Assembly: GCA_965238005.1 (NCBI GenBank)
Contig: OZ250165.1
Span: forward strand, 352,001 to 416,000
DNA from: Longimicrobiales bacterium
GTDB taxonomy: Bacteria; Gemmatimonadota; Gemmatimonadetes; Longimicrobiales; Gaopeijiaceae
Direction of reading: 5' to 3'
DNA: 64,000 nt
The translations under genes were made by a program, and so were the position numbers. Positions 46,937 through 55,682 of the stretch are shown one piece after another (position 1 is the stretch's first letter; every line of letters begins with the position of its first letter). The notes below the pieces were generated by a model. That model did not search any database, was not told the DNA's origin, and worked only from the letters and a program-made list of their open reading frames with translations.

Positions 46937-47103
46937 GCAATCGCCTTTCGGTGTCTAGTCCGCTTCACTCAAAGCAGGTGCCAAAGCTGCCATTTTCGGG
47001 GGCCCTCCCAGCTTCAGCCGATTTGATGATAGGGTGGTGACAGGACGGCGCTACCATCACTGCTCGAGTCCCCTTCGATCCGCCTAGGACTGGAGCAAAG
47101 CCC

Positions 47104-48030
47104 ATGGACGTCACCCCGGCCAACTCTCCCCCCCTTGCCCGACTCGCACCTCCGTATGACAGCCTGGAGCCGCTCTCACCGTCCGATGACTACCTCACCC
47201 AACCTCCAGGTCCGGGATCGAGCATTGTGTGGCAATTGGGCTTCGGAAGCTGGAGCGCGGCCTTCGATGTGATTCGTCGGCGATCCCCCGGAATGGCCCT
47301 GATCGTTATTCTAGCACCCAAAGTAGAGGTCGACTCTGCCCCTCAGTTGCTCAGGGTCGTTGAGGCTGGTCGCCCGCACAGCATCCTCCCCTTCCATCCA
47401 GAGCCACACCTCGATGACCTGACGGCCGTTCTTAGGAGGGAGCCGGAGGACCTCCCGGTGGAGTTCATGGACTATCTCCTTTGGCGAGGGATGAATGTGG
47501 ACATGGACGCTCGCCGGCTCATCAGGAAGACCGTCGAGCTGTCGCTCGAGCTGTACACGGTGACGGCCCTTGCACGAAGCCTCTACCTGTCTCGTCGAGC
47601 TCTGGGACGGCGCTTCCTGAAGAGAGGACTCCCCGTTCCCTCGCACTGGCTCCACTTCGGCAGAATCCTCCGAGCAGCCCTGCGGCTTCAGAACACCGAT
47701 GAGACTCTAGCATCCGCAGCCTATCACTTCGGGTATCCAGACGCCTTTGCTTTTTCCAACCAGATGTACCGGCTTACGCGCGTCCGACCCTCCGAAGCTC
47801 GGCGCTTCCTTGGTTGGGAGTGGCTCGTCGAGGCGTGGCTCCAAACCGAGGGCAGCACGGGTGGCCTGTCGAGGGATCTCTCGCGTACATTGGTCCTTGC
47901 GCCCGACGTCTTATCACGGCGGAAGGACTCCTCTAGCGTGAATGACGCAGAAGGAATGGCGGATCCCGAAGGCCCAGCCCCCCGGCCGACGCGGAGACCG
48001 CTGTCTTCAATGACCAAGGCCAAGTCCTAG
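47104..48030 (+). CDS. AraC-type HTH regulator
   Basis: LSRRALGRRF...GYPDAFAFSNQMYRLTRVRPS. Confidence 0.85.
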   Translation: MDVTPANSPPLARLAPPYDSLEPLSPSDDYLTQPPGPGSSIVWQLGFGSWSAAFDVIRRRSPGMALIVILAPKVEVDSAPQLLRVVEAGRPHSILPFHPEPHLDDLTAVLRREPEDLPVEFMDYLLWRGMNVDMDARRLIRKTVELSLELYTVTALARSLYLSRRALGRRFLKRGLPVPSHWLHFGRILRAALRLQNTDETLASAAYHFGYPDAFAFSNQMYRLTRVRPSEARRFLGWEWLVEAWLQTEGSTGGLSRDLSRTLVLAPDVLSRRKDSSSVNDAEGMADPEGPAPRPTRRPLSSMTKAKS

Positions 48031-48063
48031 CTGAAGCGAGGCGCGGCCCAGGGGTTCTGTCGA

Positions 48064-51000
48064 ATGTCCTTGGACTCAGTCGAAGCAGCCCCCGTTCAAG
48101 TCCGATTGTTCGGTGGGCCGGTCGTAGAGGTGGGAGCAAAGCCGGTGCGGCTCTCGAAGTATCAGGCCTACCTCATTGCTCTAGTCTTCGGGCATGGGCA
48201 GGACGGGCTCTCCCGCTCCAAGGCCATTGAGCTCCTCTGGAATGAGCCAGACGGCCGGAGGCAGCGTCACCGCTTGAGCCAGTTGCTCCATACACTGAAG
48301 CGGAAGTTGGGTGGAAGGGAGATCGTGCGTGATGACGATTTCTTTCTCATGTCGGCCCTGCCGAGTCATGCCACCGACCTAGAGAAGATCAATTCGTCAC
48401 TCGAGCAACGTGATCACGGCACATTGTCAGGTCTCTTAGGAGGTGCGTTTCTGTCCCGTTTGGAGAAAGCACCCACCAGCCAGTTTGACCAGTGGTCAGC
48501 CTTGACGAACAGGAGGATCGACGATGCGGTGGAAGCGAGCCTCCTGCATGCATGCCTCGAGGCAGAAGAAGAGAGCGATTGGCAGGCATTGGGCGATGCA
48601 GTTCGCGTGGCGGAGATCGTCTGCGCTCCCCAGGAGAACGTACTCCTTTACTCAATAAAGCACCTCGCGATGCGAGGACGCTTTTCCCTGGTCCGGCAAA
48701 CCGTAGCACGCTTCGCCTCCCGTTGGGCTGAGGCAACCGGCGATCGCTGGGAGCCTACTCCGGGTACGACCGAGCTGCTCGCGTGGGCACAAAGCGTCAA
48801 GGGCAGATGCCGAACCTCTGCCAATGACGGGGGCCCACTTCCGCTAATCGGTCAAAAGACTGAGTTGCGGGCCTTATATGAAAAGCTCACCACGGCGTCA
48901 CCGGAAGCTGTCCCAACCGTAGTTGAAGGTTCCTGATAGGGGAGAAAGAAAAGTGGTGGCTCCGGGGGTCCCGGGCCGATAGGCTCGGGTAGGCAAAAAC
49001 CCCAACACGGAGCCACCACGATGAAGAGAACGTACGAGGTAAGGGATCGGGCGGACAAGCGCGCGATCAGGGAGTTCCTGAAGCGGGAGGGGCAGTTTCT
49101 GCTTCCGATGCTTGAGCTCGTGGAGCAGACGGAGGTCGCGATCGACGAAGTCATCCAGGTGATGGGACGAGCGACGATCGAAGCGGTGCTGGAGATGAGC
49201 GCCGAGGGTGTGGCAGGCGTGAAGCAGGCAGGTCGGTCACGAGCGGAAGACGACACGGTGTGGTATGGCCGGCAGGGTGGTGTGGTTTACCTGTCGGACC
49301 GGAAGGTGCGTGTGGAGCGGCCACGGCTCAGGCGCCGGGGCGCCGGGGAGGGTGGCGAGGTCGAGGTGCCGGCGTACGCAGCGATGCGGAGACCGGGCGC
49401 CGTGGCGGATCGGATGCTCGAGGTCCTGATGGCGGGGGTGAGCACGCGGAAGTACGGCCGTGTGATCGGTGAGATGGCCGACACGGTCGGGGTGAGCAAG
49501 TCGGCGGTGAGCCGTGAGACGGTCGAGGCCTCGGAGCGCGTGCTGAAGGAGCTGATGGAGCGCCGGCTGGATGCGTGGGACCTCCTGGTGATCTACCTGG
49601 ACGGGATCCAGATGGGCTCGCACCACGTGCTTGCTGCGGTAGGCGTGGACTCAGACGGAAAGAAGCACGTGCTGGGCGTGAGGGAAGGAGCGAGTGAGAA
49701 CGCCGAGGTGACCAGCGCGCTCCTAGAGGATCTGGTCGAGCGCGGCCTGGACCCGGGCAGGCGGCGGCTGTTCGTGATCGATGGCTCGAAAGCGCCCAGG
49801 AAGGCGATCGAGAAGGTGTTCGGCCAACGTCACCCCATCCAGCGCTGCCGCAACCACAAGCTCCGCAACGTGCTGGGTCATCTGCCGAAGGATCAGCATC
49901 CTCAGGTGAAGGCGGCGTTCCGGGCGGCGATGAAGCTGGACGCGAAGCAGGGCGAGCAGAAGCTCGAGCAGCTCGCCCGATGGCTCGAGCGCGACCACCC
50001 CTCGGCCTCGGCCAGCCTACGCGAAGGCCTCAGCGAGATGTTCACGATCAACCGGCTCGGCCTCCCGCCGCGGCTGAGGAAGTGCCTGGGCTCGACCAAC
50101 CTGATCGACAGCACCCACTCGGGCGTAAGACAGAAGACCCGCAGGGTGACCAACTGGAAGAACGGAGCGATGGCCTTGCGCTGGGCCGCGGCCTCGTTCG
50201 TGGAGACCGAGAAGAGCTACCGGAGGATCATCGGCTACGACCAGCTCTGGATGCTCAGGGCCCACCTCGACGACCATGAACCGGTTGCCGAAATGAGAAA
50301 GGCAGGCTAACAAGGAGACTCTCCGGAGCCACCACCTTCAACTGTCAGCGGGACACCATCCGTCACCGGGACCAAGCCTTGCAGTAGTCATCGGCGAAGG
50401 GGGCATCGGCAAATCGAGAATCGTCGAGGATGTGACCAAGAGGAGGGTCCTTGAGGGATGTCAGATCTTAGGTGCACGAGCAGCCGAGTTTGAGGATTGT
50501 ATCCCTCTTAACCCGATTATTGACTCGCTGGATCGGTTGAGTGCGAAAGACCTAGTAGGGCTTGAGGAGCCATGGTCGACCGTACTGCAAAACGTACTAC
50601 CAGGACTCAGTAACGCACCCTCACAGGTAATCGCACCCACTATTCAACCCGGCAGCGTACCACGGCGCCTCTTTGAGGCATTCCTGCGCCTCTTTGAACA
50701 CCTCTCTCGAAAGCGACCCGTCCTGCTGTTCCTGGACGACGTACATTGGATCGACGAGACCTCGCTGTCAGTCATCCAGTTCATCCGCAGACGAGCGGTA
50801 GGCGATATTGAGATCGTCTTGGTCTTCACCACGGAGATGATCCAGAAGCGAGCATGCATAGAAAACTTCTTGGACTCAGTCCCAGACGAGGATGAGAAGC
50901 TTTGTGTCCGCGAGCTCGATCCAGAGGACGCGGAAACACTTGTCCTTGCACTTGCAGGCAACTCGGTAGTGCCAGAGGCGCTTATCAACATATGCGCACT

Positions 51001-52795
51001 GGGTGCCGGCAATCCCTTTTACCTCACCGAGTTGACCGCCGAGTATCTCGCCGGTCGACTCATACATACACCAGAGACTTTAGACCCGCCTCTCCCACCC
51101 TCCGTAAGACATCTACTTGAGCCGCGGCTGTCGGGTCTCTCAATCGCTGCAGGTCGTATGCTGGCAGCCCTGGCGGTGTCTGGACACCCACAGTCGATCC
51201 CCGATGTGGTTCGTCTGCTTGAGCTAGATGCAGACGCCCTCATTGATGCCAGTGAGGAGTTGCTCATGGCGCGACTCGTGACGGAGAGAGACGCCCGGTA
51301 CGTGATCGCGCACCCCATGCTCAGGCGTGCCGTCTATGATCGCATTAGCCCCGCCCGGAGATGTGAGCTTCACGAGCGTGTAGCCCAGTCGTTTGCTCGC
51401 AGCGAAGGCGACGGAAGGGATGGCGCGGTAGCACTACACTTTGACCGGTCCGGCAATTCAGCGGAAGCAGTGAGGTTCGCCCTCCGGGCGGCAGATCGAG
51501 CCGAACGGTCGGGAGCGGTGCCGGAGACGATCAAGAACCTATCCATCGCGCGCCGACATGAGGAGCGACCTGATGCGGCGCGAGAAATTCTTTGTCGTCT
51601 TGGTCATCTCCACTATCTGCACCAGGACCTCGAACAGGCGGCGGCGATCTTGGGCCTAGCAAGTGATCAGCTGAAAGAGGCTGAACAGAATGACCGAGCA
51701 TGGGAGGCCCAGCTGGAGCAGACCGACTGTCTATTGAGACTCAACCCATCCCTAGTGCATGATCTGCTTGACCGTCTAGTCGCGATGAGAGAGTCGTTCC
51801 AGACCGCTTCCGCCACCGAACCCTACGCCAGAGCCTTGGATATTGAGGTCCACGCTCTTGATCGCCTTGGAGATACGGCGGGTATTCGCACTAGGCTCGA
51901 GGAGGCTGAGACCGTCCTGCGGACTGGCACTCCACTGGCCAGATGTCGAGCCCATTGTACGATGGCGTTGCACCAACTCCATGGGAACGCCGCGTTGGCC
52001 TTGAACAATGCTCGACAGGCCGTCGAGCTCGCTGAGGCCAATGACTTGGTCACCGAGTGGCCAATCGCCATCAACCGGCTCATTGTCGTGTTGATCTATC
52101 GGGGATCGATGGAGTCGGAGGGCGGCTTGGAACTCCTGGAAAGAGCCGAGAATGCTGCCGCCCGAGTTGGAGACCTGCTCCTTCGCTTCACGCTCGGACT
52201 CAACCGGGGCGTCTGGTACCTCGAGACGGCAAACTATGCAGCTGCCGAGGTGGCGTTTGAGAAAGCTCAAGCGATACTTGGGGAGCCTGACGACACTTCA
52301 TCCGGAGCACTACTCAATATGAACCTCGGCGAGCTCAGTCTAATGACCGGGGACACGCCTCGTGCCGAGATGTTCTTTCGCCGTGTGTTGGAGACGGATG
52401 CTGCCTCCTTGCCTGCCAATCTCGCTCTCATCGCTGAGGCTGGACTGGGAATCTGTGAGCTCAGCGAGGGTAAGCTCCGCGAGGCACGATCCCGAAGTGC
52501 CAGATTGACACTGCCAAGTCACTGGTCGTTTGACCCAACTTTGCCAGCGACCTTTCAGGCACGGATTAATACTCGGCGAGGCGATCTTGAAGGAGCATTG
52601 CGGACGATCCGTTCGGCCGCAGAGACCATAAGGGACCGGTTCCCACTCAGCTGGATCAAGCTACGAATGGAGGAGCTTCGCCTACTGCAAAGGGGTGACA
52701 ACAGCGATGCCGCGTCGCTAGCCCATGAAGCGTATGACTTCGCTGGCGACCTTGGGTTGGAGCATCACTGCGCGGCGCTCGAGAGGTTCATGTAG
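48064..52795 (+). pseudogene. BTAD-AAA ATPase-TPR (STAND-type) regulator interrupted by IS256
   Basis: Removing 48904-50368 restores one frame: TTASP-GPSLAVVIGEGGIGKS; DDVHW; GNPFY. Confidence 0.9.
48904..50360 (+). mobile_element. IS256-family insertion sequence (transposase 49021-50310)
   Basis: Imperfect IRs GAAGCTGTCCCAACCGTAGTTGAAGG / CCTTCAACTGTCAGCGGGACACCATC; 8-bp TSD CGTCACCG (48896-48903 and 50361-50368); LDG, IDG, QRCRNHK motifs. Confidence 0.95.
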
Positions 52796-52834
52796 GTGTT
52801 GTGTTTCTCTGCGACACGTCAGGAGTGAGGAGGA

Positions 52835-54245
52835 TCAGATCGCCTCCGGGGAAGGCCGTACCGACGAACCCCTACCGTATGCGACCTTCGGGGGGTGAGG
52901 AGCCGGCTGGGGCGCCGATAGGTGAAGAGGCTCTGCGACAAGGTCCTGCCCCATCTCGGCGGCATGGTCGTCGAGAAGGGAGGATCCCACTACCACAGCC
53001 ACGATTGCCTGATCGAACTGGATTCCGGCGAACTCTTCCAGTTGCTCCCGTACTACCGGAAGCGGAAGGGCCTTCCGGTACGAGCGGTCTGATAGCATCG
53101 CATCCATCGCATCCGAGACCTTGATGATCCGTCCACCCATCAGGATCGCGTCACCGGCCACTCCATCCGGGTAGCCCCGGCCATCGACACGTTCGTGATG
53201 GTGTCTCACGGCCCCTAGGACCTCCTCCGGGAACGACGAGAAGGATTCGAGCAGTGCCACACCCCTTGTGACGTGTGACTCGATTACCTTCCGCTCGGCA
53301 GGCGTAAGAGGTCCCTTCTCTTGAAGGATCTCAACGTACATCTCATCGATCTTACCTATGTCGTGGAGGAGTGCAGCCGTCTCAATCAAACTGACCCGAC
53401 GCGCCGAGAGCCCGAGCTCCTCTGCGATCCGTCGTGACAGATCAGCGACGCGCTGGGAGTGCCCCGACGTGTATGGGTCACGCACTTCGATGGCCTTGAC
53501 CAGGGCTTTGAGGAGATTGGTGTTGGCCTCTTGGAGCTGGAAAGTGGTCAAGTACGCGCGGCGGATGAAAAGCAGCGGGAGCAAGACAATTAGAAAGCCC
53601 GGAATACCATGATCGACATACAGGAATGCGATTACGAGAGCGATAGGGCTAACAAGGAGATCATACAGAAGATTGGACCCGGACTTACCGGCCAGTAATC
53701 CCCAGGTCTTCTTGAAGGACATCCTCTGACTCACGGCAATCGCGAACGAAACCGATCCGTGATTGATCAGCAGGAATACGAGGGCGAACGCGACCACTGG
53801 TCCAAGCTGGAAGGCAAAGTCAGGCCCCGTCAGCTCCGGAGCCTGAGGTAGTCCCCCAACCGCTGTGAAGACGAGCCCGCCAACGACCGTCGAAAGAACA
53901 AACTGGCTGATGTTGAAGATGGCCTTTATCGGCAACTTCTGCCGAATAATGAGCTCACCGAAGGTCCCTGTCGTGGCATGGAGGATCAGAGCTGGCGCGG
54001 GCCCAAACAGTAGAACGCAGGCCAACAAGGGAAGAAACGTAATGGACGAACTACCCGAATTCCCACCAACCTTGATCGTTAGCGACAGGGACTCGGATAG
54101 CAACCCCAGGGTGATTAGGGCGAGGAGTCCCGCCCAGGCTTCCGCAGGAAGGCCAAAAAGGGAAGCCCAATCTACCAGGAGGCAGAGAACCCAGGGATAG
54201 AACTACAACTACCGCGACGTATGTACGTACGGGTCCAGTGTCCAT
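52835..54245 (-). pseudogene. multi-TM sensor fused to an HD-GYP phosphodiesterase, frameshifted near 54190
   Basis: RDPYTSGHS, LHDIGK, HHERVDGRGYPDG; MDTGPVRTY..VLSL continues as VLCLLVDW.. only after a frameshift. Confidence 0.85.
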
Positions 54246-54274
54246 TCACAAGACCCCCCTCGACCCAATCGCCC

Positions 54275-54358
54275 TTACCAGCCTGAAATGCCGCTGTAGA
54301 TCAGCCACGCGGCAAAAAAATCCCACAGAGAGCTCCAAGCGTCTACAATGAGCAGCAC
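54275..54358 (-). CDS. 27-aa hydrophobic peptide MLLIVDAWSSLWDFFAAWLIYSGISGW (putative signal/ligand precursor)
   Basis: Strong RBS GGAGGTGA (54364-54371), GTG start, TAA stop, ends 29 nt before the HD-GYP start; too short for the ORF track. Confidence 0.7.
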   Translation of the reverse strand: MLLIVDAWSSLWDFFAAWLIYSGISGW

Positions 54359-54491
54359 ATTTATCACCTCCCTTCGGGTGGTGTCAGCTTCCTCCGCTCA
54401 GGAAGCCGCTGCGCTCCGCTCTTGCCTCTCCGCTTCGCTCTTGGCCGGTCGAGGGGGTCTCCCGTTGTGAGTTGTCCGCTCCGAGCTCGCT

Positions 54492-55205
54492 TCAGATTCT
54501 GCCCCGGACCCAGCGGTCCGCGGCCTGAAGCGTTCCCAATATCACAGCCTTGTCGGCTGTGTCTTCGACGGCCGCCGCCCCCGCGAGGGCGGTGATCGAC
54601 CGTCCGTGAATCGCGTGTATCGCAACCAACGCGAACTGCTTGTCGAACGCCTCCAACAACTTCACTCCATCGACAGATAGGGCCACCTGGCCCTCTCCCA
54701 GGAGGGCCGCGATGGCACCTTCAATCGCCTTGACTGCCGCAGCGGCAGTCGTCTCGAGTCTCGCTCGGGCCAGGTCGGCTCCACTGGCCTCGCCTTCGTA
54801 GCGCTCTCCGCGCCACTCCACCGTCACCCGGATCCGCACTCGGTGAGACCCTTCGGTCTTGGCCTGGTGGCTGACGAAGAGCATCCGCTCCTCCCTGTTC
54901 AGCCGAGCCGGGTGCTGAAATACCTTTGCTTCTCTAGCCGCCTCCTCTTCCGTCGTCTGCGCCACCGACACCTTGCGGTGGTCGATCTTCATGCCGAATT
55001 GGGCCACCAGTGCGGACTCGACGTTCCGGACCGACTGCTTCGGCGACACGTCGCCCAGGGTGAGGAGATGGACCTCTTCGATCTCTCCTCCGGGCCGTGC
55101 CACCACCCGCGCCGACACCACTCCCTTCAGGGAGTTCAGCAGGGCCTATGCCTCCTCGATACTCCATTCCTTCATGGGCGGAGTCGGAGTCTTCTCCGCG
55201 TTCAC
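54492..55205 (-). pseudogene. hypothetical protein (EVHLL...SPKQSVRNVESAL...IDHRKVSVAQ family) with in-frame TAG at 55146-55148
   Basis: MNAEKTPTPPMKEWSIEEA*ALLNSLKGVVSARVV, one frame throughout. Confidence 0.75.
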
Positions 55206-55430
55206 TAGCGGAGCCGAAAGGGGGACGAGGTCTCCCTCCGAGTCGCGCCCCCGACCCTGGTCCAACCCCGTCCGGAGCAGGTCAGGTCATCGTCGAAAGC
55301 GTGGTCTCCTTCGTCTATGTTGCACCCTCCCATCGTTCCCCGATCAAGAGAAACCGTGAGGGACGCCGGTCCGGGCCGACCCGCAGTGACACCGATGGGG
55401 AGGCAAGCCAAATGTTTATGAGACTTAAGG

Positions 55431-55460
55431 ACAATGAGTCCCCAGGTCGGCTCCTGTCAA
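55431..55460 (-). promoter_or_regulatory. candidate sigma70 promoter of the hypothetical-peptide-HD-GYP unit
   Basis: TTGACA-18 nt-CATTGT on the minus strand. Confidence 0.4.
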
Positions 55461-55682
55461 GAACATCTTATGCGGGGCCGTGTATCGGTGGCCTGGGGCG
55501 TTTTCCTATTGTTACGCTGATGATGATTCATCGGGAAAAAATACAACTTAGCAAACATCCGTAGCCAGCTATCTGGAGCCCTCGAGAGTCAAGTGGCTGG
55601 ACATGCGGGGACGCATTCACCTACACTAGGCTAGCCTGGCACCAGAGGGACGACTCAACCTCTCCAAAAGGACCCAGAGACC

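What the first reader, a model, noticed from the sequence alone, without database searches (positions are those of the whole stretch)
52835..55205. Unannotated Trp-ending peptide between a hypothetical protein and a membrane HD-GYP: candidate peptide-sensing c-di-GMP module
Seen: on the minus strand a hypothetical gene (54492-55205) is followed by an 84-nt ORF with a strong RBS encoding MLLIVDAWSSLWDFFAAWLIYSGISGW. Only 29 nt later a gene starts for a multi-TM sensor fused to HD-GYP. Established: HD-GYP domains hydrolyse c-di-GMP, and short hydrophobic peptides encoded next to membrane receptors act as signals in Agr/ComX-type systems. Inference: the peptide, or its G-x-x-G-W tail, is the ligand or intramembrane partner of the phosphodiesterase, and the upstream protein is a dedicated accessory factor. 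A divergent Wza-like export gene hints at exopolysaccharide as the output. No processing enzyme is visible in the window.
Basis: partly seen in the sequence, partly recalled or inferred. Interest (0 to 1): 0.82.

Follow-up and report, generated by a model that had tools for sequence, protein, structure and literature searches.

The report
RNA-gated micropeptide beside MASE9 phosphodiesterase
A tiny conserved gene inside a predicted folded RNA sits in front of a membrane enzyme predicted to degrade the messenger c-di-GMP in several bacterial phyla; its five-residue tail is likely that sensor's unknown ligand and the upstream protein likely binds the RNA, but both larger genes are broken in this genome.

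Summary
The 27-codon ORF is a real gene. An RBS-led relative precedes MASE9 in 28 of 29 Gemmatimonadota loci picked by MASE9 alone, and in 66 of 66 loci from other phyla; pooled dN/dS is 0.22. In this lineage the conserved part is G-x-x-x-W-stop (64 of 67 distinct peptides), not GxxGW.

The upstream protein folds as a KH-II/BolA-like domain plus a LeuA-regulatory-like domain. The repeats track it: present in 26 of 30 peptide loci where the genome encodes it, 0 of 7 where it was not found. MASE9 has an ECF S-component fold, with its pocket predicted to face the cytoplasm.

Best reading: the peptide tail is the MASE9 ligand, and the upstream protein controls peptide translation through the RNA. 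Neither binding is shown. This copy is decaying: a premature stop and a frameshift recur in contigs of other runs. The link to Wza is not supported. No paper was found; this scan noted the module earlier in at least eight other genomes.

The parts
54492..55205 (-). Upstream accessory gene (start GTG 55205 or ATG 55175): N-domain KH-II/BolA/CDF-CTD-like, C-domain LeuA-regulatory-like; premature TAG at 55148-55146 in this strain
   Evidence: AF2 of intact homologue P0001 pLDDT 88; Foldseek LeuA E 3e-6; VIA Z 9.3 to 3f6g and 8.9 to 6vd9; no Pfam/NCBIfam family (9, 83, 84)
54255..54457 (-). Predicted structured RNA enclosing the peptide ORF; no Rfam match; single copy in this genome
   Evidence: fold z -4.09; consensus and covariation; Rfam; nhmmer on own genome
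54447..54457 (-). 5' arm of long-range helix P1
54255..54265 (-). 3' arm of P1, 9 nt after the peptide stop and 9 nt before the PDE start, over the place of its ribosome-binding site
54393..54439 (-). Four AGCG(G/A)A repeats (54439-54434, 54434-54429, 54420-54415, 54398-54393; a fifth at 54480-54475 lies outside P1)
   Evidence: 88 of 105 leaders have two or more within 170 nt, against 304 of 56,930 background windows
54385..54408 (-). Hairpin P3 with the last repeat in its loop
   Evidence: 20, 7, 3 and 9 double-sided changes at four pairs
54364..54371 (-). Strong RBS GGAGGTGA of the peptide gene
54275..54358 (-). 27-aa hydrophobic/amphipathic peptide ending G-I-S-G-W-stop
52835..54245 (-). 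MASE9-HD-GYP gene, frameshifted near 54178 in this strain; HD-GYP motifs intact in the main frame
   Evidence: ECF S-component fold of orthologue from L213

Best explanation
This is a broken copy of a conserved four-part module in which a short membrane peptide likely serves as the ligand of the neighbouring MASE9-HD-GYP phosphodiesterase, while the upstream protein likely binds the AGCG(G/A)A repeats of the predicted RNA leader to set how much peptide is made. Shown: gene order, conservation and purifying selection of the peptide, the invariant G-x-x-x-W tail in this lineage, helix complementarity across lineages, co-occurrence of repeats and upstream protein, and the two breaks in this strain. 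Predicted: the folds, and a MASE9 pocket opening to the cytoplasm. Inferred: in Gemmatimonadota the peptide's amphipathic helix lies on the inner leaflet and its tail enters that pocket, changing c-di-GMP hydrolysis (sign unknown); the LeuA-like domain supplies a small-molecule input; P1 also couples peptide translation to PDE translation in this phylum. In this strain neither large protein should be made full length.
For: Linkage: sORF before MASE9 in 28 of 29 MASE9-picked Gemmatimonadota loci, 66 of 66 loci of other phyla, and 67 of 80 metagenome loci (11 of the rest cut by contig ends, 2 calls rejected by eye). 15 loci with the upstream gene, room downstream and no MASE9 have no family-like sORF and 0-1 repeats. 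Selection: dN/dS 0.22 over 28 disjoint pairs; differences by codon position 145/72/254 (61). Tail: 64 of 67 distinct peptides end in W and all 64 have G at -5; the nearest subclade keeps G-I-S/A-G-W under quite different N-termini. MASE9: the top 14 VIA rows are all ECF S-components/CbiM (best Z 11.5, rmsd 3.5, 160 aligned; next unrelated 6.7); K/R bias and helix parity put the lid loops on the HD-GYP side. Galperin and Chou suggest ligand binding within the membrane (10.1101/2021.11.05.467447, passages). HdgA is membrane-bound, has no mutant phenotype, and the authors suspect missing activating signals (PMC6205966, passages). Repeats against protein: 9 of 10 and 17 of 20 sORF loci with the protein in the genome have the repeat, 0 of 6 and 0 of 1 without it. 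The gene is often divergent or elsewhere. CsrA was not found in three leader-bearing genomes.
Against: No binding, translation or enzyme activity is shown. In other phyla the peptide looks like a signal peptide (K/R in the first five residues in 64 of 66; an Ala-x-Ala site plus about 24 residues in Armatimonadota, by eye), which fits export better than inner-leaflet action. Four sORF loci lack the strict repeat although their genome encodes the protein (L145, L289, L308, L314). The seven protein-negative loci are few lineages in incomplete genomes. No GxxG loop is visible in the N-domain; it also resembles metal-binding CDF C-terminal domains. Paralogues of the protein occur without any leader (L021-L028). 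Pairing of the repeat with the peptide's start region beats shuffles in only 8 of 33 and 14 of 56 loci. VIA Z 11.5 is under the tool's caution line of about 13 for helical bundles, and Foldseek E was only 0.087. Topology rests on charge bias, not experiment.
Confidence: 0.5

Rival explanations
1. The peptide is exported and cleaved, and a 5-6-residue tail acts as a cell-to-cell signal (Phr/SHP-like), sensed outside or after re-import.
For: Signal-peptide-like build in Bacillota, Actinomycetota and Armatimonadota. A fixed Gly five or six residues from the end could mark a cleavage site. DUF5317 lies next to the PDE gene in G209. The size matches SHP/ComS precursors (recalled).
Against: Gemmatimonadota peptides mostly lack a basic N-terminus (6 of 39). 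DUF5317 was not found in 4 of 4 Gemmatimonadota genomes tested. The pocket is predicted inward. No processing gene lies in the window or in the two relatives' neighbourhoods inspected.
Confidence: 0.22
2. The ORF is only a leader peptide: the ribosome stopping at it melts P1 and frees the PDE start, and the product has no function.
For: In Gemmatimonadota the P1 3' arm starts a median 8 nt after the stop (15 nt or less in 34 of 35) and ends a median 12 nt before the PDE start. The terminal Trp codon recalls Trp-sensing leaders (recalled).
Against: dN/dS 0.22 and an invariant G-5. In other phyla the arm ends a median 20.5 nt before the start, leaving the RBS free. The sORF persists, twice as tandem duplicates, where the repeats are gone (L148, L157). 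W is last in only 16 of 66 non-Gemmatimonadota peptides.
Confidence: 0.12
3. The peptide acts on the upstream protein (its LeuA-like domain) in a feedback loop, and the PDE is only co-regulated.
For: LeuA regulatory domains bind hydrophobic amino acids (entry titles); the three genes travel together.
Against: The sORF stays with MASE9 in seven genomes where the protein was not found, and is missing where the protein occurs without MASE9 (49).
Confidence: 0.08
4. The peptide is a type I-like toxin whose mRNA is held shut by 5'-3' pairing.
For: A small hydrophobic product and a long-range helix round the ORF (53, 60) resemble type I toxin mRNAs (recalled).
Against: Fixed linkage to a signalling enzyme across phyla, single copy (66), no Pfam/NCBIfam toxin match for the peptides scanned. 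No antisense RNA was looked for.
Confidence: 0.04

Closest known systems
MASE9-HD-GYP proteins (Thermotoga maritima TM1467, Streptomyces venezuelae HdgA; 10.1101/2021.11.05.467447 and PMC6205966, passages read)
   Same: Same domain pair, above the Pfam cut-off; HD-GYP motifs intact
   Different: The passages read name no ligand, peptide gene, RNA leader or accessory protein; this copy is frameshifted
ECF transporter S-components and CbiM (4huq_S, 5edl, 5kbw, 4m5c)
   Same: MASE9 residues 33-212 align with the S-component core (Z 11.5)
   Different: Extra first and last helices, fused to an enzyme, lid loops predicted cytoplasmic whereas ECF lids face out (recalled)
Small membrane proteins that tune sensors (MgrB, SafA with PhoQ; recalled)
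   Same: A short hydrophobic protein proposed to act on a membrane sensor
   Different: Target is a c-di-GMP phosphodiesterase; the conserved part is a C-terminal pentapeptide; the gene sits in a structured RNA
Phr/SHP/ComS peptide signals and Agr/ComX (recalled)
   Same: Precursor of 20-45 aa, hydrophobic leader, short C-terminal tail, gene next to the receptor gene
   Different: Receptor is neither a TPR protein nor a histidine kinase; no follower or Cys for cyclisation; no dedicated processing gene found in this lineage
Protein-controlled leaders: CsrA/RsmA, TRAP, HutP (recalled)
   Same: Short purine-rich repeats, one in a hairpin loop, upstream of an RBS
   Different: Repeat is AGCG(G/A)A; CsrA not found in three leader-bearing genomes; the candidate binder is an unclassified KH-II-like plus LeuA-like protein
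LeuA/citramalate synthase regulatory domain (1sr9, 3fig, 3f6g)
   Same: C-domain fold (Foldseek E 3e-6; VIA Z 9.3, rmsd 3.1, 109 aligned)
   Different: No catalytic barrel; 9-18% identity; ligand unknown

Membership tests
MASE9-HD-GYP | PF20972 above cut-off, N-terminal to an HD domain | tested here: met
   43 bits against cut-off 24.3; HD_5 106 bits
MASE9-HD-GYP | HD-GYP metal and substrate motifs | tested here: met
   RDPYT, HDIGK, HHE..DG.GYP and D..DAM present
MASE9-HD-GYP | Intact reading frame in this strain | tested here: not met
   frame change near 54178, shared by contigs of three runs
MASE9-HD-GYP | c-di-GMP hydrolysis | not testable with these tools
   needs an assay
Agr/AgrD cyclic peptides | Ring-forming Cys/Ser with a C-terminal follower, AgrB neighbour, histidine-kinase receptor | tested here: not met
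   peptide ends at W-stop; neighbours are MASE9-HD-GYP and the accessory gene; no NCBIfam hit for six peptides at cut-off
ComX/ComQ | Adjacent isoprenyl transferase and ComP-type kinase | tested here: not met
   none among the window ORFs scanned near the locus; the whole genome was not searched for ComQ
RRNPP peptide systems (Phr, SHP) | Cytoplasmic TPR receptor encoded next to the peptide | tested here: not met
   the conserved neighbour is MASE9-HD-GYP; the STAND-TPR gene beyond it matched in only 2 of loci L001-L060, one being the window's own
RRNPP peptide systems (Phr, SHP) | Export, cleavage and re-import | not testable with these tools
   signal-like build in other phyla, not in this lineage
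Known Rfam RNA families | Covariance-model match over the leader | tested here: not met
   no leader match in the window or nine other loci
CsrA-regulated leader | CsrA encoded in the genome | tested here: not met
   PF02599 not found in G000, G011 (95-96% complete) or G206; found in G001, which lacks the module (65)
KH-domain RNA-binding proteins | KH fold with GxxG loop; RNA binding | tested here: inconclusive
   alpha-beta-beta-alpha-beta fold like BolA/CDF-CTD, no KH Pfam hit in 62 members, no GxxG seen; binding untested
ECF S-components | Six-helix S-component fold | tested here: met
   top 14 VIA rows, Z 9.1-11.5 (93); a shared fold only
ECF S-components | Stand-alone transporter subunit with outward lid loops | tested here: not met
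   fused to HD-GYP; lid loops predicted inside from K/R bias and parity, a prediction only

The most novel reading that the evidence does not exclude
An undescribed three-layer signalling circuit spread over at least five phyla: a ligand-sensing RNA-binding protein reads AGCG(G/A)A repeats in its own RNA family to switch on a micropeptide, whose terminal pentapeptide is the ligand of an inverted ECF S-component that controls a c-di-GMP phosphodiesterase.
Probability: 0.33. Interest if true: 0.9.

Novelty: new variant of a known kind. Interest (0 to 1): 0.74.

Why it matters
MASE9 is a widespread sensor with no known input, and Streptomyces HdgA mutants lack a phenotype, perhaps because the signal was missing (PMC6205966). 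A 5-residue candidate ligand makes this testable with synthetic peptide. If the RNA-protein link holds, it adds a new RNA family and a new RNA-binding protein family, and links translation control to c-di-GMP. The copy in this window is not the one to test; intact relatives such as G011 or cultured Desulfosporosinus, Clostridium and Caloramator loci are.

Tried and rejected
Complex prediction of an intact MASE9 domain with its peptide (L213) gave no verdict: scores 0.37, 0.27, 0.27 against a mark of 0.32, controls not folded. It is not used as evidence.

RNA runs (contigs only): relatives' leader and sORF are covered in 3 of 3 RNA runs from two studies. Two runs of one study stop at 54255-54258, at the P1 3' arm, but the third runs on to 54182, so this does not reach the tool's weak-hint level for a processed RNA; expression is not shown.

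Whole-window duplex energies were too noisy (own best in 11 of 105) and were replaced by longest-helix scoring. Pairing of the repeat with the peptide start (P2) is not general. A regulon of further leaders in the own genome was not found. Wza as output was rejected. Assembly error as cause of the breaks was judged unlikely. A tree of MASE9 (quick search only; the careful search did not finish) shows tails following clades, which shared descent explains. A single-protein metagenome scan found nothing. The ESM Atlas gave only unnamed Gemmatimonadota clusters. The promoter/terminator scan was at chance level. A relaxed re-count of repeats in the Actinomycetota and G207-phylum loci was not done, so the four repeat-negative exceptions stay unexamined.

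Full report
OBSERVATION. The window lies in a 4.84 Mb, one-contig, 95.85% complete genome whose homologues are labelled Gemmatimonadota. On the minus strand the order is: accessory gene (55205 or 55175 to 54492), 133 nt, a 27-codon ORF (GTG 54358 to TAA 54275) behind GGAGGTGA, 29 nt, then ATG 54245 of a MASE9-HD-GYP gene. Both large genes are broken. The first has a TAG at codon 10 from ATG 55175, where the homologues shown have Glu, the closest being 92-94% identical and full length. The second changes frame near 54178. Contigs of runs X1, X2 and X5 (three studies) carry the extra base, one X3 contig lacks it, and X1 and X3 contigs span the TAG unchanged. One run may be the source sample. Both other species of the genus (95% and 90% complete) lack both genes; in G002 sfsA abuts wza, so the block of about 8.7 kb is absent. 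The neighbouring BTAD-STAND gene, 1100 aa in G011, is split here by an IS256.

THE PEPTIDE GENE IS REAL. In 29 Gemmatimonadota loci chosen by MASE9 alone, 28 have an RBS-led ORF of 16-35 codons just upstream (L047 gave none), and 25 have the accessory gene within 1.5 kb. Of 80 loci found with the accessory protein in other phyla (Bacillota, Armatimonadota, Coriobacteriia, Sumerlaeota and others by record title), 66 have MASE9 next. All 66 have such an ORF; L065's start was picked by hand. Of the other 14, five are cut by contig ends, two have an HD gene and the ORF, and seven have neither MASE9 nor a family-like ORF (two of these have an unrelated RBS-led ORF). Eight paralogous loci, L021-L028, also lack ORF and repeats. 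In 80 metagenome loci, 69 calls were made, two were rejected by eye (L216, L252), and the 11 without a call end within 218 nt. Over 28 disjoint pairs pS is 0.434 and pN 0.127 (dN/dS 0.22), with differences by codon position 145/72/254; the alignments were protein-guided, which favours this a little. Among 67 distinct peptides of the window's family group, 64 end in W and all 64 have G at -5. The nearest subclade keeps G-I-S/A-G-W under unlike N-termini. Gemmatimonadota peptides seldom start basic (6 of 39), those of other phyla nearly always do (64 of 66).

THE RNA. The window's 231 nt fold at z -4.09, with 0 of 200 shuffles as good. A long-range helix P1 joins a stretch about 100 nt before the start to one just after the stop. 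Its mean length is 11.4 bp in 39 Gemmatimonadota loci and 13.0 bp in 66 others. Scores are 29.5 and 32.5 against 20.6 and 18.3 for non-cognate arms; the own pair beats all 25 shuffles in 24 of 39 and 54 of 66. The arm sequences differ wholesale between lineages while staying complementary. A model from 13 loci found all 55 further leader loci given and none of nine control loci. On that fitted alignment (57 rows, two being antisense hits) 95.4% of cells pair, with 44 double-sided changes against 13 in shuffles and at most 9 in slid controls. Most lie in hairpin P3; the P1 core varies little there. All 105 leaders hold AGCG(G/A)A within 170 nt, 88 at least twice and 60 at least three times, against 304 and 9 of 56,930 windows of the own genome (one genome as background). 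Rfam has no match. The leader is single-copy here. In Gemmatimonadota the 3' arm ends a median 12 nt before the PDE start, elsewhere 20.5 nt, so RBS masking is lineage-specific. Pairing of a repeat with the peptide start is strong only in a subset.

THE ACCESSORY PROTEIN. It has no Pfam or NCBIfam family and 2172 representatives at E 0.001 or better. The model (pLDDT 88) has a C-domain like the LeuA/citramalate synthase regulatory domain and an N-domain like CDF C-terminal domains and BolA; that BolA has a KH-II-like fold is recalled. I searched the same 201 genomes of G206's phylum (Actinomycetota by the record title of L099) for MASE9 (85 positive, 30 loci read) and for the protein (58 positive). 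Among loci with a recognisable peptide ORF, 9 of 10 in protein-positive genomes have the repeat (L163 dropped as truncated; L153 counted from the 450-nt window), against 0 of 6 in protein-negative genomes. Five of the six were rechecked and stayed negative, in a search without a positive control. In 121 genomes of G207's phylum the figures are 17 of 20 and 0 of 1. Thirteen and eight loci without a recognisable ORF among the top calls were left out. The protein gene is often divergent from the leader or on another contig, so the link is not simply operon order. The negatives are few lineages and incomplete genomes, so no p-value is given. Four unpublished genomes enter only the 85 and 58 tallies. 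CsrA was not found in three leader-bearing genomes. RNA binding is inferred, not shown.

THE SENSOR. The MASE9 model of an intact orthologue (pLDDT 89) matches ECF S-components and CbiM in the top 14 rows (Z 11.5-9.1, then 6.7; Foldseek E 0.087). K/R are enriched at residues 1-10, 101-110, 171-190 and 221-240 and scarce in the opposite loops. With the HD-GYP domain inside, the loops that cap the pocket in S-components (outward there; recalled) fall on the cytoplasmic side. I took this lead from earlier finding e1-9896177 and tested it here. It fits a non-exported amphipathic peptide in this phylum, where DUF5317 was not found in 4 of 4 genomes although it adjoins the PDE gene in G209. It fits less well the signal-like peptides of other phyla, which may be exported and re-imported.

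MECHANISM AND RIVALS. Best reading (0.5): peptide tail as MASE9 ligand, peptide supply set by the accessory protein through the leader. My estimates for the parts are: peptide gene functional about 0.97, peptide acts on MASE9 about 0.65, protein binds the repeats about 0.55. Rivals: exported Phr/SHP-like signal 0.22, leader peptide only 0.12, peptide acts on the accessory protein 0.08, type I toxin 0.04.

LITERATURE. Nine searches of open PMC papers and bioRxiv found one paper naming MASE9 and none describing the peptide, RNA or accessory protein; most subscription papers are not in this library. I read passages of 10.1101/2021.11.05.467447 and PMC6205966; the other papers I saw only as listings with abstract openings. 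The preprint's Figure S5 on MASE9 topology was not seen and may bear on the topology claim. Agr, ComX, Phr, SHP, MgrB, SafA, TRAP and HutP are from recall. This scan noted the module in at least eight other genomes; these are unchecked AI notes, not support. A word query for the repeat-protein link returned none.

VERDICT. A real, apparently unpublished module with a good candidate ligand for an orphan sensor, and a new lead tying the RNA repeats to the accessory protein. The copy in this window is decaying. Interest 0.74.

Noticed in passing
window 48064-52795: BTAD-STAND-TPR regulator gene split by an IS256 transposase (49021-50310); a single 1100-aa ORF in G011.
   Followed up: yes
window about 46937-55620: The AraC, BTAD-STAND and MASE9 block is absent in same-genus G002, where sfsA abuts wza; a contig loose end in run X2 at 55612 also reads into sfsA-like sequence.
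   Followed up: partly
window 54343-54360 (-), also L007: An ATG two bases before the peptide's GTG opens a 5-codon ORF in another frame behind the same RBS.
   Followed up: no
L148, L157: Tandem identical copies of the peptide gene before MASE9 in genomes lacking both the repeats and the accessory protein.
   Followed up: no
L068-L077, L080, L083, L087, L108: Armatimonadota peptides are mostly 43-47 aa with a clear signal-peptide build, and a second HD-only gene follows the MASE9-HD-GYP gene.
   Followed up: no
L032, L040, L050, L052: A response-regulator-like gene (by eye) is inserted between the accessory gene and the leader.
   Followed up: no
L022-L028: Paralogues of the accessory protein, several in tandem, next to signalling-like genes (by eye) and without leader or peptide.
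   Followed up: no
L012: The peptide gene appears to start with ATT behind a strong RBS.
   Followed up: no
L216: Four repeats follow the accessory gene but no MASE9 or family-like peptide is seen in 2.5 kb.
   Followed up: no
L064 1396-1632: A raiA RNA (RF03072, 174 bits) about 1.8 kb upstream of the module in Anaerosolibacter.
   Followed up: no
L158, L160, L172: A different Ser/Thr/Arg-rich small ORF ending T-T-W-S precedes long MASE9 proteins (about 770 aa) without HD in some Actinomycetota.
   Followed up: no
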